Positions 22,322-57,312 of a stretch of DNA of 64,000 bases are shown here, piece by piece. The notes below the pieces were generated by a model. It was given only the letters and a program-made list of their open reading frames with translations. It did no database searches and was not told the DNA's origin. This stretch comes from an uncultured virus (IMG/VR IMGVR_UViG_3300025669_002088) (taxonomy: Duplodnaviria; Heunggongvirae; Uroviricota; Caudoviricetes). Both the position numbers and the translations under genes were made by a program. The stretch is taken from positions 1 through 64,000 of the IMG/VR virus record IMGVR_UViG_3300025669_002088; one strand, written 5' to 3'. The stretch's first letter is position 1, and every line of letters starts with the position of its first letter.

Positions 22322-22388
22322 GGTGTCTCCCCTGCGGGGTCATTTGCCCCTCACCCTTACTACTCTGAGGTCGGAGGAGATGATCCCA

Positions 22389-25102: not shown

Positions 25103-25138
25103 GTCGTGTCCTTTAGAAATGGATGCGTGGATTGAAAT
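25103..25138 (+). repeat. solitary degenerate type I-C CRISPR repeat
   Basis: GTCGTGTCCTTTAGAAATGGATGCGTGGATTGAAAT, 36 bp like the array repeat, sharing the 3' 17-mer GGATGCGTGGATTGAAA. Confidence 0.8.
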
Positions 25139-33138: not shown

Positions 33139-33204
33139 TCCTCCTGGTGGGCGTCAGTGCCCCTCACCTTAACTACTCTGCAGGTTGCCCAGATGATCCC
33201 TGGA

Positions 33205-33459: not shown

Positions 33460-33500
33460 TGGGTGCTCCTTTTTCGGGGTCATTTGCCCCTCACCCTTGT

Positions 33501-34221: not shown

Positions 34222-35732
34222 TCCTTGACAGTACCCAATTTAGTTGCTAAAATCTAACTATTCCTGCTTGAAACAAGAAGCAGAGGTCAGTAAATGAAGT
34301 GTCGCATCTTCCGACTTCACAAGGACACCAACCGATCTAAGATCGATAAGTTGGAAGCCCTGCACAAAGCATATGTCAAGTACGTCCGTATCTGCGTACA
34401 GACGATGCTCAACCAGCAAACCCTCAACCTCCCGAAAGCCGCCAAACAAACGTTCTTCCCACGGGCTACTGATCTTACGTCTCAAATCGAAAAGATCGCA
34501 CGAGACCATGCAATTCAAATCGTAAGTGCTTGGGCCAAAGCTACTTACGCTCGTAAATTAAAGCCGACTATCACCAATCTCAAGCATGACGGTACCCTCA
34601 CCGATCAGGACGCCAAAGCACTCTGTGTCATCGGGTTGAAGTCCATCAGCAAGCCATGGGAGTTCATCACCCAAGACCATCTCGATGCTTATCACACCCT
34701 GTTGGACACCTACGGAGGCAACAAGCCTATCGTAAGGGACAACCTACCCATGAGGTTGTCAGAAATGACGGCTCGATTGGAAGACACAACTAAAGCTCCT
34801 TTGGGGGGTTTTTGGCTGAGGGTGTCCTCGTTGGAAGCTCGGAAATCCGTCTGGTTGCCTCTTGTTGGGAATCCTTACATCCAGCAGGCTGATCAGGTTA
34901 ACAAGGGGATATCAGCCCGTAAAACCAAGAAGGGGTTCTGGCGCTTTGAGGCAGTTAGCAAGGCTGAGTGGACCATTCCTGAAGCACAGGAAGATTGGCC
35001 TAAGTTGGGTGTGGATGTGGGCTTGAACGTGCTTGCAGCTACTTCAGATGGCGTGACCTATGGTGAACACGTCAAACCTAAGTTCGACAAGCTCTACGCT
35101 CGTGTCAGAAATCTCCGAGCAAACCGCCAACGACAGGACCTGAAGGACAACAGCCCAAAGTTGGATCACCTTGAAAGCAAGCTGAGTGGGTTGATCAAGA
35201 CAGAAACGGGTCGTGTAGTAAACACCCTTATCGTCCGCCATCCTGAGACAGTGTTCGTGGTCGAGGATCTCGACCTTCGAGGTTGCCGAGGCCAAAAGCG
35301 GTTTGCTTACAGGGCGTTACAGACCAACTTGGAGAGAAAAGCCCCAACAGAGAAGGTGAACCCGGCTTATACGTCGCAGGAGTGCCCCTCCTGCGGTTAC
35401 ATTCATCGAGGCAACCGAAGTTCAATAAGGTTCCATTGCCGCTCGTGCGGTAGGAAGGCTCACGCTGATTGGGTGGGAAGTTCTGGTGTGCTCAGACGTT
35501 CTGAAGACGAACACATCAAAGCTGGCGATCATCCAAGAGGTGTAAAACGAGTGCTAAGAGAGCGATTCCGTGTTAAACGGACCAGTTCCTTGGGATTCGG
35601 GCGGAAGGAGCAACCGTCATTCGAGCCCTTACCGTTGGGCCAGAGGCTTACTACCGTTGGATCAGAGTCATTTGGCAGCGGCACAGCTTCAAACTTGATG
35701 CCTGTTACATTCCAGCAGGTTTTAAGGAACGG
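34222..35732 (+). mobile_element. IS607-like TnpB-only element
   Basis: Inserted at GGGG|T with GG at both junctions; ends shared with two mini copies; no tnpA. Confidence 0.85.
34225..34253 (+). promoter_or_regulatory. sigma70-type promoter of the TnpB element
   Basis: TTGACA-N17-TAAAAT, conserved in both mini copies (26430..26458, 44970..44998). Confidence 0.8.
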
Positions 35733-35802
35733 TACCAGTGTCCATCAGCGAACCGCCTGTTCACCACCTGGATCATTGCAGCCTGAGCCATCTCGTCCGT
35801 AG
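34294..35802 (+). CDS. tnpB: TnpB RNA-guided endonuclease
   Basis: RuvC GVDVG / VEDL / HADW intact; PAYTSQECPSCG..FHCRSCG Zn finger. Confidence 0.92.
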   Translation: MKCRIFRLHKDTNRSKIDKLEALHKAYVKYVRICVQTMLNQQTLNLPKAAKQTFFPRATDLTSQIEKIARDHAIQIVSAWAKATYARKLKPTITNLKHDGTLTDQDAKALCVIGLKSISKPWEFITQDHLDAYHTLLDTYGGNKPIVRDNLPMRLSEMTARLEDTTKAPLGGFWLRVSSLEARKSVWLPLVGNPYIQQADQVNKGISARKTKKGFWRFEAVSKAEWTIPEAQEDWPKLGVDVGLNVLAATSDGVTYGEHVKPKFDKLYARVRNLRANRQRQDLKDNSPKLDHLESKLSGLIKTETGRVVNTLIVRHPETVFVVEDLDLRGCRGQKRFAYRALQTNLERKAPTEKVNPAYTSQECPSCGYIHRGNRSSIRFHCRSCGRKAHADWVGSSGVLRRSEDEHIKAGDHPRGVKRVLRERFRVKRTSSLGFGRKEQPSFEPLPLGQRLTTVGSESFGSGTASNLMPVTFQQVLRNGTSVHQRTACSPPGSLQPEPSRP

Positions 35803-36055: not shown

Positions 36056-36124
36056 TGTCTACTCAGAGAGGTTCCGAGATGATCCCTTTTGCTCGGTACG
36101 GTAGAGAAACACAGGAGGAAGACC

Positions 36125-36442: not shown

Positions 36443-36525
36443 CTCGACACATCTGACGAGATCCCAGTCCCCCAATTGATCATCGCCGGTCTTCCCCGAG
36501 TAGCTGTGTGTATAGGGGGGGACAG

Positions 36526-38886
36526 ATGCCCAACTGGAACCGAATAGCCCACAGCGCCAGCAAAGTAACCGGCAAGGTCCAAACGATGGTGGAACATCTG
36601 TTGGGGGTTGAAGCGCTGACTCTCCGTTTCCTGGGCACCCACTTCCCACCCCAGCACGTCAGAGAGGTTTCTTTCGCCAGCCGGGGGCATGACATCGGCA
36701 AATACAGTCCCCTGTTCCCTGATGTACTGAACGGGGTAGCCCGAGGGGTGCTGGATCATTCCTCACCTGGAGCCTGGGTTGCTTACGACCGAGGATCCCT
36801 CCTCGCTTCCCTGTTGATCGCCGGACACCATAGGGGTCTGCCGGATTTCTCACGCGTCTATTTGGGGTGTGTCCTACGCCCCTCTGCACAGCCGATGGGT
36901 AGCGGGACTCATCCTAACCCCGGTGTCTTCCATGTCTATCCGGGGCCAGCGAAAGACTTGTTGGTTCCCCTACGTGAGGATGGCATCGAGCTTCCTGAAA
37001 TCAATATAAATGATGATGAGACCTTCTTTTCTTTTTCTGAACTGGTGAAAGGCTGGCAGTTGTCCATTGCCAAGGGCTTGGATGTCCGAATGGCCTTTTC
37101 TGCGCTCGTTGACGCCGACTTCCTGGACACCGCCGAGCACTTCAAACCAGGGCGCACCTGTCCCAACCCCCCGTTGGACGCCGGTCTCGCCCTTGACGTT
37201 TTGAACAAATACATCGACGGCCTCAGTGCCAAGAGCAAACGCAGCGATGGTGCTTCCCCTGTGGTGCAACAGGAACGGGACCGTCTACGACAGGACTGCC
37301 TCAGAGCCGCCCAGGGGCCTCCAGGACGCATTTTGACCTGTACAGCCCCCACCGGTGTAGGCAAAACTCTAGCGCTGGTCTCGTTCGCCCTGGCGCACTG
37401 TCAGGCCCACCAACTTAAACGGGTGATCATCGCTGTACCCTACAAAAGCATCATTCAACAGACGGCGAAAACCCTGAAGGAGCTTTTCAAGGACCGGGCC
37501 TTCGGTCCCCACTTTGTGTTGGAGCATCACACGGACGCCACGCAGTGGGTCGAAGAGGAGGATCTCCAACAGGATGGTAGATCAAATGAGATTGACCGAC
37601 GAGGGCTCACTGAAAACTGGGATGCACCAATCATCCTCACCACGAACGTTCAACTATTGGAGTCCTTGTTTTCCAATCGGCCAGGGAGATGCCGGAAACT
37701 CCACAACATCCAGGACTGCGTGATCATTTTTGATGAGGGCCAGTCTTTGCCCAGCCACCTTATGCTCCCCACAATAGCAATGCTCGACCGACTCAGCCGT
37801 CAGTATCAGGTCACGGTGGTGTCTGCCACGGCCACCCAGCCTGCCTTCCAGAGCATCCTGCCTCAGGTAGAAACACTCGTGGGGGAACCGCTCCAGCCCT
37901 ACGAGGAGATTGCCTCCGCCCCCGTAGCCTCGGCCAAGGCGATGGTCCGCAACAAGTTTCACTGGCCGCACAACGACGACGAGAGGTGGACCTGGGCGCA
38001 GTTGGCTGACCGGGTGTGTTCGGAAAGGATGTCAAACCTCGTGCTTCTCAACAGGAAGGACCATGCGGAAGCGGCCTGGAGGGAAATACAGACACGGTGG
38101 GGGGCGGATCGAGCTATCTATTTGACTTCCAACCTGTGTCCAGCCCACCGGAAGGGGCTACTCAAAGAGGTGGTTCGTCGGTTGAAGACCGTTGGGGACT
38201 ACTTCGTTCTGGCAGCTACTCCTTGTGTGAACTCAGGGACGGACTTCGACTTCAACAGGGGCTTCCCGGCCATGGGACCGTTGGATGGGACGGCACAAAC
38301 CGCTGGGCGGGTAAACCGGGAGGGCTTGCGGGTACTAGGGGACATCTTCGTTTTCCGCCCGGACGTTGAATACAAGGACATGTTCCCGCATGACGAGTGG
38401 TTCCAGGCTGCTGCCCGGATCACGGAGCGGTTCCTCCGGCGCTACGGACAACGTCTCGACCCGACGAACCCGGAAATCTTGACCCAGTACTATGAGGCCC
38501 TCTATCGGGAAGCAGGGCTAGATCACCCGGCCACCAAAAAGATCATCGAGGCGTACCAGGAGGGTTCCTTCGAGAAGGTCAGTCGACGCTACCGGGTCAT
38601 TCCCGACAAAGGGGTCCAGGTCGTCGTTCCCTACCTGGAAGGAGGGTGTGGGGAGCAGTACAGGAAACTCAACAAGGAGCGGCCCACCCGGAAAAGCTTC
38701 CGGATGTGGATGAACCGAGCGGCCCTGCTATCGGTCTCTGTTCTGTCACTGAAGAAGGATCACCCCCTCTGGCTCAGCCTTGACCCCGTCACGCTGAAAA
38801 GGAAGGACGGCTCCATCACCGAAACGGGCTGGTACATCTGCACTGACCCAAGAGCCTACCACCCGGAACTTGGGCTGGTGCAATGA
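36526..38886 (+). CDS. cas3: Cas3 HD nuclease-helicase (type I-C)
   Basis: AHS..EHL, HDIGK, AGHH.GL, DADFLDT, APTGVGKT, ENWD, DEGQ, SAT, Q.AGR.NR. Confidence 0.93.
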   Translation: MPNWNRIAHSASKVTGKVQTMVEHLLGVEALTLRFLGTHFPPQHVREVSFASRGHDIGKYSPLFPDVLNGVARGVLDHSSPGAWVAYDRGSLLASLLIAGHHRGLPDFSRVYLGCVLRPSAQPMGSGTHPNPGVFHVYPGPAKDLLVPLREDGIELPEININDDETFFSFSELVKGWQLSIAKGLDVRMAFSALVDADFLDTAEHFKPGRTCPNPPLDAGLALDVLNKYIDGLSAKSKRSDGASPVVQQERDRLRQDCLRAAQGPPGRILTCTAPTGVGKTLALVSFALAHCQAHQLKRVIIAVPYKSIIQQTAKTLKELFKDRAFGPHFVLEHHTDATQWVEEEDLQQDGRSNEIDRRGLTENWDAPIILTTNVQLLESLFSNRPGRCRKLHNIQDCVIIFDEGQSLPSHLMLPTIAMLDRLSRQYQVTVVSATATQPAFQSILPQVETLVGEPLQPYEEIASAPVASAKAMVRNKFHWPHNDDERWTWAQLADRVCSERMSNLVLLNRKDHAEAAWREIQTRWGADRAIYLTSNLCPAHRKGLLKEVVRRLKTVGDYFVLAATPCVNSGTDFDFNRGFPAMGPLDGTAQTAGRVNREGLRVLGDIFVFRPDVEYKDMFPHDEWFQAAARITERFLRRYGQRLDPTNPEILTQYYEALYREAGLDHPATKKIIEAYQEGSFEKVSRRYRVIPDKGVQVVVPYLEGGCGEQYRKLNKERPTRKSFRMWMNRAALLSVSVLSLKKDHPLWLSLDPVTLKRKDGSITETGWYICTDPRAYHPELGLVQ

Positions 38887-38980
38887 AAAAGTCTGCGGAC
38901 AGGGGTTCCTTTTGCGACTTCATTGAGTAGTAAGAAGTGCCGCCGAAGAAACTCGGCTGGATAAACAGACGGAGGGACAG

Positions 38981-39652
38981 ATGAAAAAAGGTATGCTGCA
39001 CGGGTTGGAAGTGTGGGGGGACAATGCCTGCTTCTCCCGCCCAGAGGTGACGGAGCGGACCACCTACCCCATCCCAACCCACTCAGCCTGTCGGGGGATC
39101 TTCGACGCTATCTACTGGAAAAGGTCCGCCAACTTCTACTGGCAGATCGTCGGGGTAGAGGTTGTGAACCCGATCCGGTACATGGGGATCATGCGGAACG
39201 AGATGAAAGACAAGGTCACCCGCCGCACTCTTCAGGTTGATCTTACAACCCAGAAGCACCGGACCCAAAAGCACACCAGGACTCTCCTGGACCCCCGGTA
39301 CCGCATCTTCGCACGGGCGGTCTGCCGGAATCCTGATGGGAACACCAACGCCATCGACGCCCAATTCCGTCGTCGGGCGGAGAGGGGCCAATGTTTCCAC
39401 CAGCCCTTCTTAGGTTGCAAGGAGTTTATGGCCAACTTCCAGCTTGTCCCGGTGGATGAGCATGATCCATCACAGGGACTCGCAGACCTTCAGGTGGACG
39501 TGGGGGTGATGGTCTACGACACCTTCAATCTGCTGGTGCCCGATGGAGATCCTTCGGTCAGCGTGTTCCACGCACAGATCAAGGATGGGGCCGTGGCCTA
39601 CCCGGAGTTCACTGATAGTGCCGCCGTGTTCCGGCCAGGGGGTGCAGCATGA
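38981..39652 (+). CDS. cas5: Cas5c/Cas5d
   Basis: VWGDNACFSRPE..ER.TY..PT.SA.RGIF.AIYWK; GQCFHQPFLGCKEF. Confidence 0.93.
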   Translation: MKKGMLHGLEVWGDNACFSRPEVTERTTYPIPTHSACRGIFDAIYWKRSANFYWQIVGVEVVNPIRYMGIMRNEMKDKVTRRTLQVDLTTQKHRTQKHTRTLLDPRYRIFARAVCRNPDGNTNAIDAQFRRRAERGQCFHQPFLGCKEFMANFQLVPVDEHDPSQGLADLQVDVGVMVYDTFNLLVPDGDPSVSVFHAQIKDGAVAYPEFTDSAAVFRPGGAA

Positions 39653-41481
39653 GTGGTATCGGACAGAGCCTCCTCAACTATGCCGCACACTATATGCCCC
39701 AGCAGGCTCCGGTGGGGTACGAGTACCTGACCGTCGTGGAAACCGTAGTGTGCCTGACCCCGGACGGGAAGTACCAGGACTGTCACCTCAGGGACACCAA
39801 GACGGCCTCCCCGATCCTGACACCTCGGGTGCCCTCCAATTTGCTCAGGGCCACGCCCCCCAAGACTCACTTCTTCATCGGGTATGTCCCCCAGGTGTTC
39901 CCTCTCCTCGTGGCCGAACCGCACGACAACACCAAGAACGAGGTGAAGAGGGGCCTCTTCCTGGAGCAGATCAGAACGGTCATCAAGGAGGTTCCCTGCA
40001 CTCGGAAGTACCTGACCCCCATCCAGACCTTCCTGGAGGACGACGAGCAGGTCGCCCTTGTGGTTCAGGCTCTGACGAAGATGGAGGCAGACCTCAAGCG
40101 GGCTGTGATCTTCCAGACCGAGGGGAAGAAACTCGGCATCCCGTTCCAGGACAAGAAGGAATGGCGGGAGTGGTGGGCGACCTACCTTTCAGGAGCGGAC
40201 AAAAAGAAGAAGACCAGCGATAAGACGTTCCGCTGCGTCGTCACCGGGGACGAGATCACGAACCCCTGCCGCATCCATCCTGACGGCATTGCCTTCGGCA
40301 CAACGAAGACGAAGCTGGTTGCCGCCAAGCAGACCTCCAGTCACCACTATGGCCAGGAGTCTGGCCTCGTTGCTCCGATGTCAGACCAGACGGCGAGCAC
40401 AATGACCCAGGCTCTGGTTCATGCCGCCCAAAACGCCGGGACGGCCTTTGGGGATCTTCGAATCCTTGTGTGGGCTTGTTCCAGGGGAGAAACCCTTACG
40501 GGGAAGGCTGGACTGCTGGCGGGCCAAGGGCCGGTTCTTGAAGGGGGCGAGTGGACCCAGATCCTGTCCGACGTTATGTCCGACCTCTTGAACTCGGGAT
40601 TGACGGATGGGGAACTCCGGGGTGCCACCCGGAAGGTGAAGGAATACCTGGACACGGGCACCGGACCGGGAGGTGTCCTAGACATGGACTGCACCTTGGG
40701 CATCGTTTCTAGCAACGGTCCCCGGTTGGCTGTCCGGCACTGGGAGACTGGACCCCTGTCCGTCCTGTTCAAGAACATCTATCGATGGTATCAGGATATG
40801 ACCATCAGCAACAACCGCAATGACACGGGGATCGCCCGCCTTTCTGCACTCTGGCAGATCCTTTCCGCTGTCAACGGCCCAAGGGGCAAAGCTTCCGAAC
40901 TGGAGCGTGAGATGCTCGTTCAGGTAGCCCTGCGGGGCCAGTCGGTCCCAATGAGCATTGTCAAAAAGGCCCTGGTGCAGTTCCGGTCACAGTTGCACCT
41001 GTCCATCAAACCGTCAACCAACATGGGGATCGCTCCGGCATTGCCGGGAATCCTCAAAACCTTCATCAACAGGAGAGGGAACACCATGTGTGAAGCAGGA
41101 TTGAACAAGGACCACCCGAGTGTGGCGTACCAGTGTGGGCGGTTGTTGTCCGTCCTGTCCGAACTCCAGAGCCTCGCCATCGGTGGGAGGAACCCCCCGA
41201 TGGCCCTGGCTGCTCAGTTCTCGTCCGCAACGATGCAGAACCCGGCCCGTGCGCTGGCCCGGTTACTGCTCCGTTCCGAGAAGCACGTCAACAAGCTCGT
41301 CCGACAGGGAAAGGGATGGGCGGATCACAAACGGCAGGAGATCGTCGACCGCCTGCCCACAGACCTTCCGACCCGCCTCGGCATCGAGGATCAAGCTTTG
41401 TTTGCCATGGGGTTGCTCCACCAGCGCTCGTCCTGGAAGAAGCAGGACAAGCCCGCAGGGACACCCCCGATTAAGGCATAG
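39649..41481 (+). CDS. cas8c: Cas8c/Csd1
   Basis: Position in the operon; CVVTG..RIHP, N..RLAVR.W, AYQCGRL..L..LQ..A, QALF.MG..HQR. Confidence 0.88.
   Translation: MSGIGQSLLNYAAHYMPQQAPVGYEYLTVVETVVCLTPDGKYQDCHLRDTKTASPILTPRVPSNLLRATPPKTHFFIGYVPQVFPLLVAEPHDNTKNEVKRGLFLEQIRTVIKEVPCTRKYLTPIQTFLEDDEQVALVVQALTKMEADLKRAVIFQTEGKKLGIPFQDKKEWREWWATYLSGADKKKKTSDKTFRCVVTGDEITNPCRIHPDGIAFGTTKTKLVAAKQTSSHHYGQESGLVAPMSDQTASTMTQALVHAAQNAGTAFGDLRILVWACSRGETLTGKAGLLAGQGPVLEGGEWTQILSDVMSDLLNSGLTDGELRGATRKVKEYLDTGTGPGGVLDMDCTLGIVSSNGPRLAVRHWETGPLSVLFKNIYRWYQDMTISNNRNDTGIARLSALWQILSAVNGPRGKASELEREMLVQVALRGQSVPMSIVKKALVQFRSQLHLSIKPSTNMGIAPALPGILKTFINRRGNTMCEAGLNKDHPSVAYQCGRLLSVLSELQSLAIGGRNPPMALAAQFSSATMQNPARALARLLLRSEKHVNKLVRQGKGWADHKRQEIVDRLPTDLPTRLGIEDQALFAMGLLHQRSSWKKQDKPAGTPPIKA
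41086..41481 (+). CDS. cas11: Cas11c from an internal start within cas8c
   Basis: In-frame ATG preceded by AGGAGAGGG, just before L.KDHPSVAYQCGRL. Confidence 0.7.
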   Translation: MCEAGLNKDHPSVAYQCGRLLSVLSELQSLAIGGRNPPMALAAQFSSATMQNPARALARLLLRSEKHVNKLVRQGKGWADHKRQEIVDRLPTDLPTRLGIEDQALFAMGLLHQRSSWKKQDKPAGTPPIKA

Positions 41482-41541
41482 TCTCTAATGGCCTAAGGTG
41501 GGCCTTAGAGTTGGATTAGGCATAAAGTGAGGAGAAGTATC

Positions 41542-42552
41542 ATGAAGGATCTTTTGATGTGGCTGAAGAGTGGGACGGCGGCAATCGGATACAGGTTCGA
41601 GATCTTGTTCCTGTTCGATTGTCTGATGGGGAATCCCAACGGTGACCCCGACTTCGGCAACCTGCCCCGGACCATCCCGGACACGGGACACGGGTTCGTC
41701 ACCGACGTCGCCATCAAGCGGCGTCTCCGCAACTACGTGAGTCTCCGCAAGGCAGGCAAGACCCCGTACCAGATTTTGCTGATGATGAACACCTGTACCA
41801 ACAGGCTCATCGCCAAGGCCCACGAGGACTCCCACGGGACCGTCCCGGCGAAGGCTACCAAGCAGGAGGAGCGGGCGGCGGGTGACCGGATGTGCCAGGA
41901 CTATTGGGATGTCCGCACCTTCGGCGGTGTTCTCAACACAGGTGCCAAGGCGGGCCAGATTCGTGGACCCGTCCAGGTGGTGAGTGCCCGGTCCCTCGAT
42001 CCGGTATCCATCCAGGAGATCACCATCACCCGCATGACCGACACCAAGGGCTCCCCTGATCCCAAGAAGGTCAAGACCCCCAAGGATCAGGGTTTCTCCT
42101 CCGCCCAGTGGCAGGAGTATGAGGACGGGGCCGAGGCGGCGGCTCTCCGCACGATGGGAACCAAGGCGATCATCCCCTACGGTCTCTTCGCTGCCAACAT
42201 CACGGTGAGCGCTTTCGTGGCGGAACAGACGGGCTTCTCGGCGGAGGATCTGGCCCTGATGATCGAGGGTCTGGAAAACATGTACGACCATGATCGGACC
42301 TCCAGCAAGGGTTTGATGACCTGTCGGGGCATCTACATCTTCAAGCACGTCGGGACGGCGGACGACCCCGAAGAGCGGGCACAGCAGGCCAAGCTCGGGT
42401 GCGCCCCGGCCCATAAGCTGCTGGACAACGGACGCATCGTGACTGTGGTCAAAAAGGACGGGGTAGAGGCCCCGATGTCCTTCGACGACTACACTGTCAC
42501 CGTGGACGAGTCCAAGCTCCCGGAAGGTGTCGAGTTCCGGGCCATCCAGTAA
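41542..42552 (+). CDS. cas7: Cas7c/Csd2
   Basis: GNPNGDPD..N.PR, VTDV.IKR..RNYV, DVRTFG.V, RGPVQ, TGFS..DL, DHDR. Confidence 0.95.
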   Translation: MKDLLMWLKSGTAAIGYRFEILFLFDCLMGNPNGDPDFGNLPRTIPDTGHGFVTDVAIKRRLRNYVSLRKAGKTPYQILLMMNTCTNRLIAKAHEDSHGTVPAKATKQEERAAGDRMCQDYWDVRTFGGVLNTGAKAGQIRGPVQVVSARSLDPVSIQEITITRMTDTKGSPDPKKVKTPKDQGFSSAQWQEYEDGAEAAALRTMGTKAIIPYGLFAANITVSAFVAEQTGFSAEDLALMIEGLENMYDHDRTSSKGLMTCRGIYIFKHVGTADDPEERAQQAKLGCAPAHKLLDNGRIVTVVKKDGVEAPMSFDDYTVTVDESKLPEGVEFRAIQ

Positions 42553-42748: not shown

Positions 42749-43933
42749 GTCGCATCCTCTAACAAAGGATGCGTGGATTGAAACAGAGGTTCCGCCGGAG
42801 ACCTATAACGTCAGGCTGGTCGTCGCATCCTCTAACAAAGGATGCGTGGATTGAAACGTTACTGCCCGCATGACACCCCGGATGAGATCACCAGTCGCAT
42901 CCTCTAACAAAGGATGCGTGGATTGAAACACTGTGGACCTGGCGGGGAAGAAGCCGACCTATGGTGGTGTCGCATCCTCTAACAAAGGATGCGTGGATTG
43001 AAACTTTCAAACAGCGACCCAGTCGAGTGCGACTTGGTGGGTGTCGCATCCTCTAACAAAGGATGCGTGGATTGAAACAAGTGCCTCGCCGTCAAGGATC
43101 CAGAGGGGAAGCTGAAGTCGCATCCTCTAACAAAGGATGCGTGGATTGAAACAGGCCCACAGAACGGCTCCCACGGCCTGGGGACGCCGTGTCGCATCCT
43201 CTAACAAAGGATGCGTGGATTGAAACGCTCAGAGGACTGCTCGACGGGACAAGACGGTCTTCCTCGTCGCATCCTCTAACAAAGGATGCGTGGATTGAAA
43301 CTCGAAGTTGGGCGAAATCCAGGAATGACGGTCACAAGTCGCATCCTCTAACAAAGGATGCGTGGATTGAAACAATCCGATGACACTTCCCTTTCCTGTC
43401 CGCCCTTGGAGCGTCGCATCCTCTAACAAAGGGTGCGTGGATTGAAACGAGATCCCCCTTGCGACTCCCGCCCTGAAGGCGCTGGCGAAGTCGCATCCTC
43501 TAACAAAGGGTGCGTGGATTGAAACGTAAGCGAACTCCACCCCTGGTCCGTGGGTGACCGGTCGCATCCTCTAACAAAGGGTGCGTGGATTGAAACGCAG
43601 TGAGCCAGCGCCCCACGAGCCATGCCTGCCTTACTGTCGCATCCTCTGAAAAAAGGATGCGTGGATTGAAACTAAATCCGATTTACGGGGAACTGGCTGG
43701 TCGGCTCACGTCGCATCCTCTAACAAGGGGTGCGTGGATTGAAACGCTGATTCGGACTGATCCCTGAGAAGGCGCAACCCTGCCGTCGTACCATCTAACA
43801 AGGGGATGCGTGGATTGAAACGAAACCGCAGCGAGGCAGAAGGGGTCACTCCCTCACGGGTGTGTGGATTGAAACATTAGGGTAGTAAGTGTAGACAACC
43901 TCGTCGTTCCCATGAGGGGGCGTGGATTGAAAC
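42749..43933 (+). CRISPR. type I-C CRISPR array, 17 repeats / 16 spacers
   Basis: Repeat GTCGCATCCTCTAACAAAGGATGCGTGGATTGAAAC (36 bp); spacers ~35-41 bp; distal repeats degenerate, the last two 31 bp. Confidence 0.97.
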
Positions 43934-45992: not shown

Positions 45993-46805
45993 ATGTCACA
46001 GCTTCTGGGTGGACTCATCGGAAACGGTTACGTGGGGGGTGCTGTCCACGCTTTCCTACGAAGCAAAGGCTATATCGTCCGGGTACACGACACCAACCCG
46101 GACAGATCTACCTACGCCATGGGGACGGTCAAAGAGTGTCCTTTGATCTTCGTCTGTGTCCCAACCCCGACTGGGGAACAAGGTCAGGATCTGAAACACG
46201 TCTACGAAGCCTTCCGCCACCTCCAGGGGACGAGCAGCATCGTGGTGCTGAAGAGCACTGTGTTGCCGGGGACGTGTTTCAAGCTGGCCTCCCAGTTTGA
46301 TCTTCCGAACCTCGTGTTCAGCCCTGAGTTCCTGACCGCCCGGACTGCGGACCAGGACTTTGCGTCACCGACCAGCATAATCCTCGGCACTGAAGGCCCA
46401 CAGCCGCCCACTGTGGGCCTTTTCCAGGAACTGTGGCCGGACGTACCGATCCTCCAGATGACGTGGGAGGAGGCCGAACTGGTGAAGTACGCCCGTAACA
46501 CGTTCTACACTACCAAGGTGGCGTGGTGGAACGAGATGTATGCCCTGTGCCAGAAACTCGGCGTGACGTTTGACAGGGTGAAGCAGGGCGCTCTGGCGGG
46601 AGGTTGGATCAACCCTATGCACTGTGACGTGCCTGGACCGGACGGGAAGCTCGGTTTCGGGGGTGCCTGCCTACCCAAAGACTCAGAAGCCCTGGTGGAG
46701 TTCGCCTTCGCCAACGGTGTCCAACTGTCCATCCTAGAACAGGCACTGAAAAGCAACAAAAGGCACCGGCTAGGGGATATCAGTAATCCCACCCAGCAAA
46801 CCTGA
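45993..46805 (+). CDS. UDP-glucose/GDP-mannose dehydrogenase family (short form)
   Basis: IGNGYVG, FVCVPTP, LKSTVLPG, PEFL, EAELVKY..N, GFGGACLPKD. Confidence 0.9.
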   Translation: MSQLLGGLIGNGYVGGAVHAFLRSKGYIVRVHDTNPDRSTYAMGTVKECPLIFVCVPTPTGEQGQDLKHVYEAFRHLQGTSSIVVLKSTVLPGTCFKLASQFDLPNLVFSPEFLTARTADQDFASPTSIILGTEGPQPPTVGLFQELWPDVPILQMTWEEAELVKYARNTFYTTKVAWWNEMYALCQKLGVTFDRVKQGALAGGWINPMHCDVPGPDGKLGFGGACLPKDSEALVEFAFANGVQLSILEQALKSNKRHRLGDISNPTQQT

Positions 46806-47180
46806 AGGATGATCGAACGGGTCAACCTGTGACATTGCGATGGCAGCGGCGACGCCGTTGACGTATTCCTGGAGCCACCGTAGGGCCTCCTCTATGCCTC
46901 TCATATCATTGATGTCCTGAAGGGCACGGATGGGCTGGTGCCCCCGCTGGTCAACCCACCGGAAGCGCACCTCATTGCGTCCTGTGCCCACCTTGTCCTT
47001 GTGATGCATCTTGGCCGTGACCACGGTGAAGATGACCTCGAAGTTCCAGACCCAGAAGGCCACCCACACCACCCCAGCACTTTCGGTCACATGTATGTCA
47101 ACACCGGGGAAGGCTTTCTCACAGGCCGTTCGGAGGGCTGTAGGAGTGACGGGCCTGGGAGTAGGAGGGGTCTTCGCCAT
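46770..47180 (-). CDS. hypothetical protein
   Basis: 136-aa ORF convergent with the dehydrogenase. Confidence 0.55.
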   Translation of the reverse strand: MAKTPPTPRPVTPTALRTACEKAFPGVDIHVTESAGVVWVAFWVWNFEVIFTVVTAKMHHKDKVGTGRNEVRFRWVDQRGHQPIRALQDINDMRGIEEALRWLQEYVNGVAAAIAMSQVDPFDHPSGLLGGITDIP

Positions 47181-47227
47181 GCCTTACCCTACCCGACCCG
47201 GATTGCTCCGAGTCGGGTGGTCGGTCG

Positions 47228-48100
47228 TTACACGGCCTGGGACAGGTCCACCGTGATCTCGGTCGGGCTGACCGTGACCTTGTAGTACTTCCCGCAGGGG
47301 AAGGGGTTGGCCTTGTCGCCGCTGGAGAACAGTACACAGCCTTTTTCCGAGGAGATGTTGCACGCCTTGGCCCCGATGCCGGGATCCGTCAGGGTGACAA
47401 TGACATTGCTGTCGGTCTCCACCTGGACGAACACCGGCTGGCCTGCCCGGATGCTGGTCCCGCTCATGTGGCAGAGGGCCTCGAAGATCCCCCGCCCCAG
47501 GTGCATCCGGGGTTCCTGGCGGGTCTCGGTCCGCACGGAGGCGACGTAGTCGTCTGCCTTGAGCTTGGAGGCCGCTCCGGCGATGACCACGTTCTTCGTG
47601 TACGCTGCCTGGGCGTTGGCGTGGGCAAGGGTACCGGGTGCGCTGGCGGCGCTGGTCGTGGTCAGGGAAGGGGGAGGGGCGTCCGCCATCGTCTCCATCC
47701 GTCCCTGGTCCCAGCGGGGGACAAAGATCTCGAACTCGTGGGCGTCGCAGGCATCGGTGTTCGGTCCGTACACGAACACCTCGACACCCGGCTCGGTCCG
47801 GTCCGGATACAGGCCCACCGTGAAGCGGCTGCGCTGCACCGGGGAGCAGGGACCGTTGCCGTTCCCGTACTGCGGGAGGGTGTCCCCGTAGAACAGGTCA
47901 CGCAGGTAGGAACCGAGGATGGTGGTCCTGAAAGCGAAGTCCGAACGATGGACCCGCAGGACTGCGGTGACCTCACCGCTGGAGTAGCAACGACCTGCTT
48001 CCGCCCAGAGGGCAAGAAGGTCCTCCACTGCGGTCTTCCAGTCGGGGGAGTTGGCGATGGCGTCGGCGTTGCGGGTGTCTTCGATCTCGATTGCACTCAT
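47228..48100 (-). CDS. hypothetical protein with a CRISPR repeat in its 5' UTR
   Basis: GAGGAGG RBS; strong GC3 bias. Confidence 0.75.
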   Translation of the reverse strand: MSAIEIEDTRNADAIANSPDWKTAVEDLLALWAEAGRCYSSGEVTAVLRVHRSDFAFRTTILGSYLRDLFYGDTLPQYGNGNGPCSPVQRSRFTVGLYPDRTEPGVEVFVYGPNTDACDAHEFEIFVPRWDQGRMETMADAPPPSLTTTSAASAPGTLAHANAQAAYTKNVVIAGAASKLKADDYVASVRTETRQEPRMHLGRGIFEALCHMSGTSIRAGQPVFVQVETDSNVIVTLTDPGIGAKACNISSEKGCVLFSSGDKANPFPCGKYYKVTVSPTEITVDLSQAV

Positions 48101-48118
48101 TTGGTGCCTCCTCATTTG

Positions 48119-48150
48119 GTTTCAATCCATGCACCCTCAGCGAGTGCAAC
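48119..48150 (-). repeat. solitary 32-bp type I-C repeat
   Basis: GTTGCACTCGCTGAGGGTGCATGGATTGAAAC; hairpin TGCACTC/GGGTGCA. Confidence 0.85.
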
Positions 48151-48231
48151 TGCTACCTTGTCTACTCCAACGGTCCTGGAGATGATCCTTTCTTTTGGCT
48201 CCGTGTCCTCATTGCGTCCTCAAAGCGTTCA

Positions 48232-48807
48232 CTAAATCAGGGACCAGTCAGCGATGCAGCAGGGGACCGCCCGTGTGCCAACTTCGTACTGGAGGGCATC
48301 CGGTGCCCACTCCATCGGCCCCAGGGACGTGGCCAACATTTCCTTAAGGGATCGTGCGTCCGCATAGGTCAACCCCTTGAAGGTGTCAGGCTGTACCAAG
48401 CGGGAACGAAGCTGCCCCATGTCCGAGTTATCATCCAGGATAGCGATCTTCAGCGTTTCCGGTTCCGGGTGATAGGTGCGGAGGAACCACTGGATCTCCA
48501 TCCCACGCCCGGCAGTCCTGTGAAGTTCAGCATCATCTAGATGGATGACAGGAGTCCGTCCGATGATGGGTGCTGTGAGACCCTTGTCACCCAGCATATC
48601 GACCAGTTCGTTCATGTGCCACAGGTGCCTCCAGGTAGAGGAGATCACCACAGCAGCGTCCACAGGGGCCAACACTCGCTGGAGCCTGCGGCATAGGACC
48701 GGGTCGAGATGGTCCCGTCCGAGGTTCAACCGTTTCGCTTTCTTGAACCAGGAGGTGCGGTTTAACACTCCATCGATGTCCAGGAAACATAGGGTGTCGG
48801 GGTTCAT
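48232..48807 (-). CDS. HAD-family phosphatase (Swiss-army-knife RNA-repair type)
   Basis: FLDIDGVLN, VVISSTWR, RG.EI..FL, AILDD. Confidence 0.85.
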   Translation of the reverse strand: MNPDTLCFLDIDGVLNRTSWFKKAKRLNLGRDHLDPVLCRRLQRVLAPVDAAVVISSTWRHLWHMNELVDMLGDKGLTAPIIGRTPVIHLDDAELHRTAGRGMEIQWFLRTYHPEPETLKIAILDDNSDMGQLRSRLVQPDTFKGLTYADARSLKEMLATSLGPMEWAPDALQYEVGTRAVPCCIADWSLI

Positions 48808-49091
48808 CCTGTCTTCTTCACGGAGGCCCCCCAGCCGGGACGGGCCAAAACTGAGCGGATTTCCCGTTGCCTGGTCTTCGGGTGCATCCGGTGCCGGAAC
48901 TGGTGCCATGCTGTTGCCGGGATACCCTGCACGTTCTCGTACACGGTTCCCATGTACTGCCAGATTTCACCACACTCGGGGTGCTCGCAGGCAATGGGAT
49001 CCGCTTGGCCCAGGTTGATGTCCGCTGTCGCCAACTGGTCCCAGGCGTAGTCCCACTCGGGGGTGCCCTGATCGATGAAGTGAATGCTCAT
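48804..49091 (-). CDS. hypothetical protein
   Basis: ATGA-coupled; WQYMGT..HQFRHR.HP. Confidence 0.6.
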   Translation of the reverse strand: MSIHFIDQGTPEWDYAWDQLATADINLGQADPIACEHPECGEIWQYMGTVYENVQGIPATAWHQFRHRMHPKTRQREIRSVLARPGWGASVKKTG

Positions 49092-49764: not shown

Positions 49765-49893
49765 TACGCCCTCCTCACTTCAGCTACTCTGGACGCCCGC
49801 CAGATGATCCCTGTAACATTGCGGGATCATCTCGCCGGGTGGCGGAGTAGTCAGTGTGAACGGGGGCAAATGACCCCACTACAGGAGGGCACG

Positions 49894-54336: not shown

Positions 54337-54500
54337 GCCACACCCCAGTGCCTCCAGCAGTCTAAGCGTCGAGCGGCGTTTGAACCTCTACTGGAGGGGC
54401 ACTATTGAAGGGAAAACGGGGCCGGGTGTCCTTTTGGGATCATCTCCTCCGACCCCAGAGTAGTAGAGGTGAGGGGCAAATGACCCTGAAGGAGAACGAG

Positions 54501-55450: not shown

Positions 55451-56085
55451 TGGTTACATTCATCCAGATCGTCCTGAGCTGGTTTGTGGTCGGGGGGTTT
55501 GTCCAGATGCTGTTGTTCCTCGCAGGACTGGCTGGGAGTTACACCCGAGGACCCGAGTACGCCACCTGGGTGAACGAGCACCCCCACAGGCCCAAGGACA
55601 GACCGATGACCCCGAAGACCCTCTTCCTTCTCCTGGGGATGTGGCCGGTCTTCCTGTTCATCTTCCTCAGGGCATGTCAGGCACACCAGACCCCTGACGA
55701 GTGGGTGCTGCGGACAGCAGAGCGACAGGACCAACGACAACGAGACCAGATCGAAGCTGCTGTGGTCCGTATCCATTGGTGGAGTAATTTCACTACCAGG
55801 ATAGCCACCGAGGGCAACCCCTTGATCTACGTTCGGACGGTGTTTTACAAAGACGGTTCCGGGGCCACCACCCACATGGTTCTCGGAGGCCCTGACAGCG
55901 TGTACCTGCCCGTGAGGCTGTCAGACCAGGACCGACCGCTAGTTGCACCAATGAAACCTGTGCGGACGTTAGACGCAGCCAAGCGGCTGTGTGACGAGGA
56001 CATCAAATGGTTGACAGCATGCCTTCCTGGGAACGAGGTTTCGAGGAGTGTCCTGTCCCGTCAAAGCAAGGAGATCCCCATATGA
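55450..56085 (+). CDS. membrane protein
   Basis: Two TM segments; coupled. Confidence 0.6.
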   Translation: MVTFIQIVLSWFVVGGFVQMLLFLAGLAGSYTRGPEYATWVNEHPHRPKDRPMTPKTLFLLLGMWPVFLFIFLRACQAHQTPDEWVLRTAERQDQRQRDQIEAAVVRIHWWSNFTTRIATEGNPLIYVRTVFYKDGSGATTHMVLGGPDSVYLPVRLSDQDRPLVAPMKPVRTLDAAKRLCDEDIKWLTACLPGNEVSRSVLSRQSKEIPI

Positions 56086-56654
56086 CCGCTTCCAACAGAT
56101 GCCCCCTGTGTGGCAACCCTCAGATCGGCTGTAACCTGGACTGTTCCCACTGTCGTGTGGTGGCCCGGAAGAACTACCGGGGCCGTCCAACGAAGATCAA
56201 CCTCTACCTGGATGACGTCCGGGGTTGTCCCTTTCCCGGCGACACGGAAGGTCCCTGGTACGAATCAAGACACATGAAGATCATCCCAGACGAACCAGGT
56301 GAGGGTATCGATTGGTTCGTCGTCCGCACCTACGCACGGTGCATCGAGATGCTCCAGCAGGAGGCCATCGGGACCCTGTCCCTGGACCACGACATCGCTG
56401 ACTACAGTCCCGAGAAGGGGCGTGAGGTGACGGGATATGATGTCCTGTGCTGGCTGGAAGAGCAACTCGATCGAGACATCAATTTCCCGATCCCGAACGA
56501 TATCAGGGTCCACTCCGCCAACCCGGTAGGACGGAAGCGCATGGCCTCTGTGATCGAGCGGCTGGCCCGGAAACGGGATCTGCTGGCACGGATGAACAGA
56601 CGACAGGAAGACACCCCCTCACCAAGTCGGTGGGGAAATGGGCTGAACAAGTGA
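56082..56654 (+). CDS. cyclic-phosphate-processing receiver-like domain protein
   Basis: LYLDDVR..P, LSLDHD, TGYDVL.WLE, VHSANPVG...M. Confidence 0.8.
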   Translation: MTASNRCPLCGNPQIGCNLDCSHCRVVARKNYRGRPTKINLYLDDVRGCPFPGDTEGPWYESRHMKIIPDEPGEGIDWFVVRTYARCIEMLQQEAIGTLSLDHDIADYSPEKGREVTGYDVLCWLEEQLDRDINFPIPNDIRVHSANPVGRKRMASVIERLARKRDLLARMNRRQEDTPSPSRWGNGLNK

Positions 56655-56739
56655 GCAAACGATAGGTACCGGGATCATCTGACCGACCTACAGAGTAGTC
56701 TAGGTGAGGGCAAAGGACCCCCGCAAGGAGACACGCAAA

Positions 56740-57312
56740 ATGAGGCTGCATTACTACCGGGGGAACATCGTCCACGCACAGGTGGACGCCATCGTGAACG
56801 CTGCCAACCCCAGGATGCTTGGCGGTGGGGGGGTCGACGGGGCCATTCACCGAGCGGCGGGTCCGGGGCTGAGGGCTGCGTGCAGGGAGTTCCCCGAGTT
56901 GGAACAGGGTGTCCGCATTCGGGTCGGACAGGTTCGGACGACCGAGGGCTTCGACCTGGACGCCGATTTCGTCATCCACACGGCGGGGCCGATCTTCGCT
57001 GGGTACGGCATACGAAGCCTCCGACCGGGCGAGCGGGTCGAACCCCGGCCCCTCAATGAACTCATGCACTGCATCGTCAACTGCCTGAAGGAAGCGGCCC
57101 GGATCGGAGCCAACAGGGTCGCCTTCCCCGCCATCTCAGCAGGGGTCTACGGGGGCAGCGTGTCGGCCTTTGCCCACGCCCTCCACGAGGCCATGAAACA
57201 GGAAGCCCGCCTCCCCATCGAGGAGGTCCAGGTCGTCCTGTTCCAGGACAACGAGTTCCAGGAGTTTAGCGACTGGCAGGAAACAGCGGACGACGCTCCG
57301 CCCATCCCCTGA
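56740..57312 (+). CDS. macrodomain ADP-ribose hydrolase (MacroD/YmdB-like)
   Basis: VDAIVNAAN..LGGGGVDGAIHRAAG, VIHT.GP, AFPAISAGVYG. Confidence 0.93.
   Translation: MRLHYYRGNIVHAQVDAIVNAANPRMLGGGGVDGAIHRAAGPGLRAACREFPELEQGVRIRVGQVRTTEGFDLDADFVIHTAGPIFAGYGIRSLRPGERVEPRPLNELMHCIVNCLKEAARIGANRVAFPAISAGVYGGSVSAFAHALHEAMKQEARLPIEEVQVVLFQDNEFQEFSDWQETADDAPPIP

What the first reader, a model, noticed from the sequence alone, without database searches (positions are those of the whole stretch)
47228..48189. Promoter - solitary CRISPR repeat - RBS - unknown gene: candidate Cas-controlled mRNA or RNA anti-CRISPR
On the minus strand, the promoter motif (48162..48189) is followed after 11 nt by an intact 32-bp I-C repeat, then CAAAT-GAGGAGG-CACCAA-ATG of a 290-aa unknown gene. 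The repeat makes up most of the 5' UTR and is the canonical-length type, unlike the main array. Cas5d processing would leave the 5' handle just before the RBS, so Cascade assembly on the 'spacer' would cover the RBS and start codon. Inference: a Cas-sensing translational switch (e.g. feedback control of an anti-CRISPR or toxin) or a Racr-like decoy against the host I-C system.
Basis: partly seen in the sequence, partly recalled or inferred. Interest (0 to 1): 0.85.

Follow-up and report, generated by a model that had tools for sequence, protein, structure and literature searches.

The report
Lone CRISPR repeat leading phage mRNA
A huge salt-lake phage that carries its own CRISPR cutting machinery also has one stray CRISPR repeat built into the start of an ordinary gene's message, most likely as bait or a handle for CRISPR proteins, a known phage trick in an unusual setting.

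Summary
On the minus strand, one of 19 copies of a phage promoter consensus (48188..48162) is followed after 11 nt by a solitary 32-nt type I-C repeat (48150..48119). Next come CAAAT, GAGGAGG, CACCAA and the ATG (48100) of a 290-aa gene.

The repeat has the canonical 2-7-5-7-11 layout and the same 11-nt handle as the phage's own array, whose repeats are 36 nt. The window belongs to a 528-kb phage with cas3-cas5c-cas8c-cas7 and no cas1 in the 125 kb held.

I file it as a viral solitary repeat unit (SRU, Racr candidate), a known kind. This scan has noted the same promoter-repeat-RBS layout before on other DNA.

New points:
- Homologous genes in other huge phages carry unrelated hairpins at this leader position.
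- A second lineage (L020) carries a different I-C repeat there.
- A second solitary repeat of the phage's own 36-nt type lies at 25103-25138.
- The repeat's arms can pair with the start-codon region instead of with each other.

My odds:
- decoy or competitor for I-C Cas proteins: 0.4
- cis-acting leader dependent on the phage's own Cas5c: 0.3
- plain 5' hairpin: 0.15

Nothing functional is shown.

The parts
48162..48188 (-). Phage promoter consensus GGATCATC-N14-AGTAG (the hexamer AGTAGA ends at 48161)
   Evidence: 19 exact matches in the window against 0.01 expected. In the 125-kb record most copies precede an RBS and an ORF. No sigma-70-type site is found here.
48119..48150 (-). Solitary type I-C repeat (SRU1). 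GU 48150-48149; 5' arm UGCACUC 48148-48142; loop GCUGA 48141-48137; 3' arm GGGUGCA 48136-48130; handle UGGAUUGAAAC 48129-48119. Inferred Cas5c cut between 48130 and 48129.
   Evidence: The layout equals the canonical I-C repeat described in PMC8524198. It is 5-6 of 32 positions away from common bacterial I-C repeats.
48107..48113 (-). Ribosome-binding site GAGGAGG, 5 nt after the repeat and 6 nt before the ATG
48093..48107 (-). Small hairpin GCAC-CAAAUGA-GUGC with the start codon in its loop. Its arms can instead pair with the arms of the repeat.
   Evidence: The same loop motif follows other promoters of this phage.
47228..48100 (-). Gene for a 290-aa conserved huge-phage protein (P0001), function unknown
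   Evidence: No Pfam or PHROG family. AF2 model pLDDT 88.9. Only weak winged-helix (residues 17-114) and MraZ-like (residues 172-290) matches, Z up to 4.5.
36508..42552 (+). Phage-borne type I-C effector operon: cas3 (HD + helicase) 36508-38886, cas5c 38981-39652, cas8c 39649-41481, cas7 41527-42552
   Evidence: Pfam, NCBIfam, PDB Cas5 match 8g9t at E 8e-31. No Cas1 in the 125-kb record.
42749..43933 (+). CRISPR array of 17 repeats: 36-nt main repeat with 14 spacers of 35-41 nt, then two odd 31-nt repeats (43845-43875, 43903-43933) behind short spacers of 23 and 27 nt
25103..25138 (+). Second solitary repeat (SRU2), a diverged copy of the phage's own 36-nt repeat. It starts 5 nt after the stop of a 60-aa ORF behind thyX and fills a convergent intergenic gap.
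   Evidence: It has 7 of 36 differences from the main repeat, 6 of them in the first 18 nt. Both stem changes give G-U pairs on this strand. Fold energy -8.1 kcal/mol.

Best explanation
The element is a viral solitary repeat unit of the Racr kind, built into an mRNA leader.

**Proposed mechanism.** The consensus phage promoter starts transcription a few bases before the repeat, so the first ~32 nt of the message for the 290-aa protein are a canonical type I-C repeat. Any I-C Cas5c in the infected cell would bind the hairpin and the UGG after it, and would cut after A48130. That could be the host's Cas5c if it has one, and very probably the phage's own. Cas5c would then stay on the 11-nt handle, and Cas7 subunits would load onto the following RNA. 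The RNA thus competes with genuine crRNAs for Cas5c and Cas7, acting as a decoy or competitor. As a side effect the RBS and AUG are covered.

**Shown:** the promoter consensus, the repeat and its fold, the spacing, the phage's own effector genes, and the comparative pattern.

**Inferred:** the transcription start, cleavage, Cas loading, and any effect on immunity or translation.
For: 1. Canonical I-C repeat layout with an intact UGG and handle. Passages of PMC8524198 say Cas5c reads the cut site and downstream bases and tolerates loop and 5' overhang changes.
2. The repeat lies 11 nt after a promoter motif present 19 times against 0.01 expected. [quoted passage not shown] It also shows an I-C Racr co-transcribed with acrIC5 that inhibits I-C immunity.
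3. The repeat is of the common bacterial 32-nt form, not the phage's own 36-nt form.
4. The same repeat-RBS-ORF layout recurs in other viral contigs. Among 96 distinct hits of a truncated scan, 23 had a proper hairpin next to the handle and 19 of those were solitary. Of 10 downstream ORFs tested, one is an Acb2/Tad1 anti-defence domain (E 5.6e-19), one an HTH and one a LexA-type winged helix. None of the 5 such records searched has an I-C Cas7.
5. The handle is intact in both independent leader repeats (window and L020), although their stems share nothing.
6. Neighbouring genes look like counter-defence: PARP-like, Macro, HAD_SAK_2 and cREC_REC.
Against: - The phage's own Cascade uses the same handle, so a decoy would also drain the phage's own system.
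- A decoy needs only a strong promoter, and the window alone holds 19. Yet I-C repeats sit in the leader of the same gene family in two lineages, 5-6 nt before the RBS.
- My control scan does not show that repeats favour RBS-adjacent sites. With CCTCCT in place of AGGAGG, 10 of 47 distinct hits had a hairpin, against 23 of 96.
- The contig is not in the held supplements of the Racr paper.
- No RNA data exist.
Confidence: 0.4

Rival explanations
1. Cis-acting leader dependent on the phage's own Cas proteins. The phage's Cas5c cuts the leader and sets a 5'-OH end carrying the handle. Translation of the 290-aa protein is then tied to Cas level. It could be switched on, because cutting removes repeat arms that can otherwise pair with the start region. 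Or it could be damped, because Cas7 coats the RBS and AUG. SRU2 would be the matching 3'-end processing site of another operon.
For: - The phage encodes Cas5c, Cas7, Cas8c and Cas3. A related promoter-like site (GATGATCCC-N15-GGTAGA) precedes the cas operon.
- RBS and AUG lie at positions 6-12 and 19-21 after the handle.
- Alternative fold: GUUGCACUCG (48150-48141) pairs with UGAGUGCAAU (48099-48090), and GGUGC pairs with GCACC. This gives -23.7 kcal/mol against a shuffle mean of -16.9, and 2 of 200 shuffles fold as well.
- Codon 2 is the only AGT among 22 Ser codons. Only 32 of 2000 synonymous recodings drawn with the gene's own codon usage reach the native duplex energy.
- I-C repeats occur in this gene's leader in two lineages with the same spacing.
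- SRU2 is of the phage's own repeat type, and its 3' arm plus handle are conserved while the 5' half has drifted into G-U pairs.
- None of 5 related huge-phage records without the leader repeat holds a hairpin-bearing I-C repeat.
Against: - No precedent turned up in my literature searches.
- The repeat is not of the phage's own 36-nt type.
- With 99 nt of context the minimum-energy fold keeps the repeat hairpin.
- The rare AGT codon is equally needed for the phage's usual start-codon-in-loop hairpin.
- L020 shows no such cross-pairing, and whether its phage has cas genes could not be checked.
- Repeat-RBS leaders also exist in phage records where no Cas7 was found.
Confidence: 0.3
2. Plain 5'-terminal hairpin. 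The leader of this gene family needs a stable stem-loop near the 5' end, for mRNA stability or as a site for some other factor. A CRISPR repeat simply replaced the older hairpin by recombination, and Cas proteins play no part.
For: - About 15 of 26 homolog leaders for which my script found a promoter-like hexamer show a hairpin of 5 bp or more starting within ~20 nt of it. This is my reading of the printed folds (L011 read).
- The closest relative, L017, has the same promoter and the same CAAATGAGGAG block, but a different 31-nt hairpin segment where the repeat sits.
- L050 has the same promoter as L020 and no repeat.
Against: - The 11-nt single-stranded handle, which a mere hairpin does not need, is perfect in both leader repeats.
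- In SRU2 the cut site and handle are the conserved part.
- Only 1 of 19 consensus promoters in this window has such a leader.
Confidence: 0.15
3. Guide-like unit or scar. One possibility is that the repeat turns the first ~35 nt of the mRNA into a crRNA that directs the phage's Cascade-Cas3 against co-infecting relatives lacking the repeat (exclusion or homing). The other is a neutral remnant of recombination with an array.
For: - The phage has a nuclease-competent-looking Cas3 with an HD domain above its cut-off.
- The locus itself is protected because AAC replaces a PAM.
- In relatives, TCC or CCC precedes the homologous CAAAYGAGGAG block.
Against: - There is no second repeat to define a 3' end.
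- No target was found for the would-be spacer in the 125-kb record or in any fetched locus apart from the locus itself.
- The nearest relative matches only the first 11 nt.
- A scar would not be expected twice in the same leader.
Confidence: 0.1

Closest known systems
Viral solitary repeat units / RNA anti-CRISPRs (Racr), especially RacrIC1 (Camara-Wilpert et al. 2023, PMC10651486; abstract, passages and section 9 read)
   Same: A single CRISPR-repeat look-alike in a viral genome, directly downstream of a promoter, type I-C, transcribed together with a protein gene. Expected to bind Cas proteins and compete with crRNAs.
   Different: - RacrIC1 lies 11 nt after acrIC5, whereas this repeat lies before the gene and 5 nt from its RBS.
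- Per that paper, SRUs are typically not associated with cas genes. This phage has a full I-C effector operon and array 4-6 kb away.
- The downstream gene is a 290-aa conserved huge-phage protein, not a small Acr.
- No activity has been tested.
Viral crRNA-like regulators (Cracr) and cellular CreR/CreA (bioRxiv 10.1101/2024.10.29.618823; abstract and passages read)
   Same: Repeat-derived RNAs that load Cas effectors for regulation rather than immunity. I-C examples exist, some as two-spacer arrays.
   Different: - Those RNAs have a spacer flanked by repeats that matches a cas or toxin promoter next to a PAM.
- Here there is one repeat only. No PAM-flanked partial target was found in the 125 kb.
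- The two odd terminal array units with 23- and 27-nt spacers resemble that class more than the solitary repeat does.
CRISPR-Cas systems of huge phages lacking adaptation genes (review PMC11656645, passages read; the primary study is recalled, not read)
   Same: A genome over 200 kb with an effector module plus array and no cas1 in the part held.
   Different: The passages I read do not mention dispersed solitary repeats at mRNA ends.
Engineered Cas6/Csy4 cleavage sites in 5' UTRs used to insulate gene expression (recalled, not read here)
   Same: A repeat hairpin between promoter and RBS; cutting would give a defined 5'-OH mRNA end.
   Different: - That system is synthetic, and Cas6-type enzymes stay on the upstream hairpin.
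- Cas5c stays on the downstream handle, so here the protein would remain on the mRNA next to the RBS.

Membership tests
Type I-C CRISPR repeat | 32 nt: 2-nt 5' overhang, 7-bp stem, 5-nt loop, 11-nt 3' overhang (PMC8524198) | tested here: met
   The fold of 48150..48119 is ..(((((((.....)))))))........... at -10.3 kcal/mol. Paper passages.
Type I-C CRISPR repeat | U-G-G directly after the stem and an ...AUUGAAAC tail (the part Cas5c reads and keeps as the 5' handle) | tested here: met
   UGGAUUGAAAC is identical to all 17 array repeats. It is 5-6 of 32 positions from bacterial I-C array repeats.
Type I-C CRISPR repeat | Member of an array (further repeats at spacer distance) | tested here: not met
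   It is the only copy within 4 kb, and nothing repeat-like lies 30-45 nt downstream.
Viral solitary repeat unit / Racr candidate | Single repeat look-alike in an intergenic region of a virus, with no partial repeats beside it | tested here: met
   Virus record of 125,741 bp, the same phage as a 528,282-bp contig. The repeat lies in an intergenic gap of 131 nt.
Viral solitary repeat unit / Racr candidate | Promoter within 250 bp upstream | tested here: met
   The phage consensus promoter ends 11 nt upstream. Promoter activity itself is inferred.
Viral solitary repeat unit / Racr candidate | Host carries a CRISPR-Cas system of the matching subtype | not testable with these tools
   The host is unknown (salt-lake metagenome). 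The only matching system seen is the phage's own.
Viral solitary repeat unit / Racr candidate | Binds Cas proteins and inhibits CRISPR interference | not testable with these tools
   This needs an experiment.
crRNA-like regulator (CreR/CreA/Cracr) | Spacer-like segment flanked by repeat or repeat-like sequence on both sides | tested here: not met
   No second repeat lies downstream of 48119.
crRNA-like regulator (CreR/CreA/Cracr) | At least 9 PAM-proximal matches to a cas or toxin promoter next to a PAM | tested here: not met
   The scan of the 125-kb record for sites matching at least 10 of the first 12 bases returned, for each segment, itself plus 2 to 12 or more partial sites. None of the sites listed is preceded by TTC. 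Host targets are not testable.

The most novel reading that the evidence does not exclude
The huge phage uses its own Cas5c, and perhaps Cascade, as a post-transcriptional tool. Dispersed solitary repeats would mark mRNA boundaries: SRU1 at the 5' end of the 290-aa gene's message, and SRU2 at the 3' end of the thyX-orf60 message. Cutting at SRU1 would remove a 5' arm that can otherwise sequester the start codon, and would leave a Cas5c-capped 5'-OH mRNA. Translation of a conserved DNA-binding-like protein would then be gated by the level of free Cas proteins. That would be a natural counterpart of engineered Cas6 UTR insulators and a new, non-immune job for a type I system.
Probability: 0.2. 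Interest if true: 0.8.

Novelty: new member of a known kind. Interest (0 to 1): 0.45.

Why it matters
Solitary repeats in phages are so far understood as small RNA decoys against host CRISPR.

This case places one inside the translation-initiation region of a conserved gene, in a phage that makes its own matching Cas proteins. Comparative evidence shows the repeat took the place of an older leader hairpin, and that this happened or persisted in two lineages.

If the decoy reading is right, it adds a clean I-C example from huge phages. It also raises the question of how a phage spares its own Cascade.

If the cis reading is right, it would show Cas5c acting as an mRNA-processing or translation-control factor. 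That can be tested directly with a small reporter set.

Tried and rejected
- **Host assignment by repeat identity.** The best repeat differs at 5 of 32 positions, so no host call is possible.
- **Exact repeat elsewhere.** In viral contigs it occurs only in this same phage. L020's repeat pattern gave 0 hits.
- **Remainder of the L020 and 528-kb contigs.** They could not be read because the records are not held.
- **Expression.** No RNA holder is listed among 24 runs. Contigs of 4 DNA runs laid on 47200-48900 show no variant.
- **Rfam.** The only hit is a sub-threshold CRISPR-DR10 match inside the array.
- **Promoter and terminator scans.** No sigma-70 promoter or intrinsic terminator lies in 46700-48400.
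- **Protein function.** No Pfam, PHROG, PDB-sequence or Atlas lead. Foldseek against PDB and BFVD found nothing at E <= 0.001. VIA-align gave only Z <= 4.5.
- **Relation to the 299-aa gene after the array.** None.
- **Spacer targets.** No match with E below 0.02 and none longer than 19 nt, in the record or in the fetched loci.
- **Enrichment of repeats next to RBSs.** The control does not support a claim, because the hairpin fractions are alike.
- **Near-handle hits in G005 and at 93252 and 31598 of the record.** These are chance: no proper hairpin, or they lie inside ORFs.
- **Racr paper supplements.** The files held as text do not list this contig. bioRxiv supplements could not be seen.

Full report
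**What the window is.** The window is the first 64 kb of a 125,741-bp virus record. The same phage also occurs as a 528,282-bp metagenome contig (L016), so it is a huge phage. It is held by 24 DNA runs labelled salt lake metagenome.

It carries a type I-C effector operon:
- cas3 with HD and helicase parts, 36508-38886;
- cas5c, 38981-39652;
- cas8c, 39649-41481;
- cas7, 41527-42552 (Pfam, NCBIfam, Cas5 structure match 8g9t at E 8e-31).

An array of 17 repeats follows at 42749-43933. No Cas1 is found in the 125 kb held. That is about a quarter of the genome, so absence is not shown.

**The observation.** All parts are at the stated places on the minus strand.
- The 32-nt repeat at 48150..48119 is unique at up to 3 mismatches, with 0 expected.
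- It shares the 11-nt tail TGGATTGAAAC with all 17 array repeats. That tail occurs 18 times in the record, and the reversed control pattern occurs 0 times.
- It folds as 2-nt overhang, 7-bp stem, 5-nt loop and 11-nt tail.

Passages of PMC8524198 give exactly this layout for canonical I-C repeats. [quoted passage not shown]

The phage's main repeat is different, at 36 nt with an 8-bp stem and a 7-nt loop. A scan of species genomes shows that the solitary repeat belongs to the common bacterial family GTCGCACCC....GGGTGCGTGGATTGAAAC. The best match still differs at 5 of 32 positions.

**The promoter.** GGATCATC-N14-AGTAG occurs 19 times in the window against 0.01 expected, and 48188..48162 is one of the 19. 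Across the 125 kb these sites precede an RBS and an ORF, with leaders of about 14-45 nt. The leader here is 60 nt, the longest, and the only one of the 19 that holds a repeat.

The repeat starts 10 nt after the AGTAGA hexamer, so it should sit at the very 5' end of the transcript. That is an inference, because no RNA data exist. No sigma-70-type promoter or intrinsic terminator is found nearby.

**The gene.** The 290-aa product has 24 relatives at 35-62% identity. The longest contigs recorded for these proteins run from under 1 kb to 530 kb, several of them over 70 kb. I fetched 6 viral and 70 metagenomic loci, one of each being this phage.

It has no Pfam or PHROG family. A confident model (pLDDT 88.9) gives only weak structural matches. 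Residues 17-114 resemble winged-helix DNA-binding domains (Z 3.3-4.5), and residues 172-290 resemble MraZ (Z 4.5). Foldseek finds nothing. I read it as possibly DNA-binding, at low confidence.

In L020 the upstream neighbour is a PARP-like gene. By eye, the same C-terminal peptide ends the upstream ORF in several distant loci.

**Do homologs keep the repeat?** I printed the upstream DNA of 68 loci. Two are this phage, and several of the rest duplicate one another. The I-C handle occurs in only one other locus, L020.

L020 is 42% identical in protein. At 3934-3966 it reads GTTCCCTTCCTTAGAGAAGGGTTGGATTGAAAC. This lies 13 nt after its own promoter-like GGTAGT, 6 nt before GGAGG and 19 nt before the ATG. 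Its stem shares nothing with the window's repeat, but the handle is identical.

Two close relatives tell the history:
- L050 is a close relative of L020 with the same promoter over 23 nt. It lacks the repeat and has a small CCCC-loop-GGGG hairpin instead.
- L017 is the window's closest relative (62% identity, sister in the tree at 99/96). It has the same GGATCATCTCCA...GAGTAGA promoter and the same CAAATGAGGAG block. Where the repeat sits, it has an unrelated 9-bp hairpin with a 10-nt tail.

More generally, my script found a promoter-like hexamer for 26 leaders. In about 15 of them I read a hairpin of 5 bp or more starting within about 20 nt of the hexamer (L011). So this gene's leader commonly begins with a hairpin, and in two lineages that hairpin is an I-C repeat.

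On a 47-row protein tree the two repeat-bearing loci fall in one six-member subclade (support 94/91), each with a repeat-less sister. Two changes are needed. Two gains are more parsimonious than one gain plus about five losses (counting L050, which is not in the tree). A single old origin is not excluded. Either history argues that the association with this leader is not an accident.

**Features that bear on mechanism.**

*Geometry.* After the inferred cut, the mRNA would start with the handle. The RBS would be at positions 6-12 and the AUG at 19-21 of the would-be spacer, inside the stretch that a Cas7 backbone covers. This is inference from the known architecture.

*Alternative fold.* The start codon lies in the loop of a 4-bp hairpin, GCAC-CAAAUGA-GUGC. 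This motif recurs after this phage's promoters with other stems: GGGCAAATGACCC at up to 2 mismatches occurs 10 times against 2.8 expected. Because its stem equals the core of the repeat stem, the arms can swap. In that fold GUUGCACUCG pairs with UGAGUGCAAU (start codon and codons 2-4), and GGUGC pairs with GCACC.
- In an 81-nt context this is the minimum-energy fold: -23.7 kcal/mol, z -2.7, and 2 of 200 shuffles fold as well.
- In a 99-nt context the repeat hairpin wins at -23.8 kcal/mol, so the two folds are about equal.
- Codon 2 is the only AGT of 22 Ser codons. Only 32 of 2000 synonymous recodings drawn with the gene's own usage, and 106 of 2000 drawn uniformly, reach the native duplex energy.
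- The start hairpin itself also needs that codon, so this is weak evidence.
- L020 shows no comparable cross-pairing.

*A second solitary repeat.* A scan of the 125 kb for near-handles preceded by a hairpin returned 22 rows:
- 16 of the 17 array repeats;
- the solitary repeat;
- four hits I judge to be chance, or did not follow;
- one new element at 25103-25138 (+).

The new element is a 36-nt copy of the phage's own repeat type with 7 differences. Six of them lie in the first 18 nt, and both stem changes give G-U pairs on this strand. The 3' arm and the first 10 handle bases are intact. It starts 5 nt after the stop of a 60-aa ORF behind thyX and abuts the stop of a convergent gene.

- Of 96 distinct upstream sequences, 23 had a hairpin ending at the handle, and 19 of those were solitary.
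- Ten of them other than this phage are followed by an ORF of 67 aa or more.
- Pfam names three of the ten above cut-off: an Acb2/Tad1 hairpin domain (L177), an HTH (L135) and a LexA-type DNA-binding domain (L147). Two more match below cut-off and five have no match.
- In 5 of these phage records, which are 22-73% complete, no I-C Cas7 is found.
- A control scan with CCTCCT in place of AGGAGG gave 59 loci. Ten of 47 distinct sequences had a hairpin, the same fraction. I therefore claim recurrence, not enrichment.

This scan's own earlier notes describe the same promoter-repeat-RBS layout in other phages and file it as Racr-like. Those are leads, not evidence.

**Comparison with what is known.** PMC10651486 defines viral solitary repeat units as Racr candidates.
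- It reports 2,103 on viral sequences.
- It shows that an I-C unit lying 11 nt after acrIC5 is co-transcribed with it and inhibits I-C targeting.

The present element meets the sequence-level criteria of that class. It differs in four ways: it lies upstream of and tight against an RBS, it sits in a Cas-encoding huge phage, it is of a different repeat flavour from the phage's own array, and it precedes a large conserved gene.

It does not fit the crRNA-like regulator class. There is no second repeat, and no PAM-flanked partial target in the 125 kb. My literature searches found no paper describing translation control by a solitary repeat in a 5' UTR. The library lacks most subscription journals.

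**Verdict.**
- Most likely (0.4): a Racr-type competitor RNA riding on an mRNA leader.
- Strong rival (0.3): a cis-acting leader processed by the phage's own Cas5c. Its support comes from the phage's own effector, the own-type second solitary repeat, the repeated association with one gene's leader, and the arm-swap fold.
- Plain hairpin: 0.15.
- Guide or scar: 0.1.

All functional steps are inferred.

Noticed in passing
window 25103-25138 (+): Second solitary repeat, a diverged copy (7 of 36 differences) of the phage's own 36-nt repeat. It starts 5 nt after the stop of a 60-aa ORF behind thyX and abuts the stop of a convergent DUF3228 gene. Its stem changes are G-U-preserving, and its 3' arm plus handle are conserved.
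   Followed up: partly
window 43822-43933 (+): The last two array units are odd. They have 31-nt repeats with different stems and tetraloops, behind short spacers of 23 and 27 nt. The 27-nt spacer contains TAGGGTAGTAAG, identical to the -10-like element of two promoters in locus L020. It may be a guide against competitors' promoters, a crRNA-like regulator, or another promoter-plus-repeat module. No target was found.
   Followed up: partly
window, 19 sites (e.g. 14578-14604, 33173-33199, 54437-54463): Phage-specific promoter consensus GGATCATC-N14-AGTAG, 19 copies against 0.01 expected. Some stand back to back (49784/49824, 58163/58202). Related (G)AGTAG(A/T) motifs precede the homologous gene in other huge phages.
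   Followed up: partly
window 22337-22349, 33477-33489, 49864-49876, 54474-54486 and others: Small hairpin GGG(G)-CAAATGA-CCC(C) right after many of these promoters, often with the ATG in the loop serving as the start codon (10 matches against 2.8 expected). Its purpose is unknown.
   Followed up: no
window 36059-36085 (-): A consensus promoter points leftwards into the 3' flank of the TnpB gene (34294-35802, +), with no ORF behind it. It may drive a non-coding RNA.
   Followed up: no
window 31591-33138 (-), 48232-48909 (-), 56007-56654 (+), 56704-57312 (+): Cluster of likely counter-defence or RNA-repair genes around the finding: PARP-like with WGR, HAD_SAK_2, cREC_REC and Macro. In L020, and by eye in several distant loci, the PARP-like gene lies directly upstream of the 290-aa gene's homolog.
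   Followed up: partly
L177:300-550 (+): In another viral contig a canonical solitary I-C repeat is followed by an RBS and a 74-aa Acb2/Tad1-type anti-defence gene. L135 and L147 have the same layout before HTH and LexA-type genes.
   Followed up: partly
window 61296-62137 (+): Tandem repeat of 216 bp, 3.9 copies at 82% identity, inside a 308-aa ORF.
   Followed up: no
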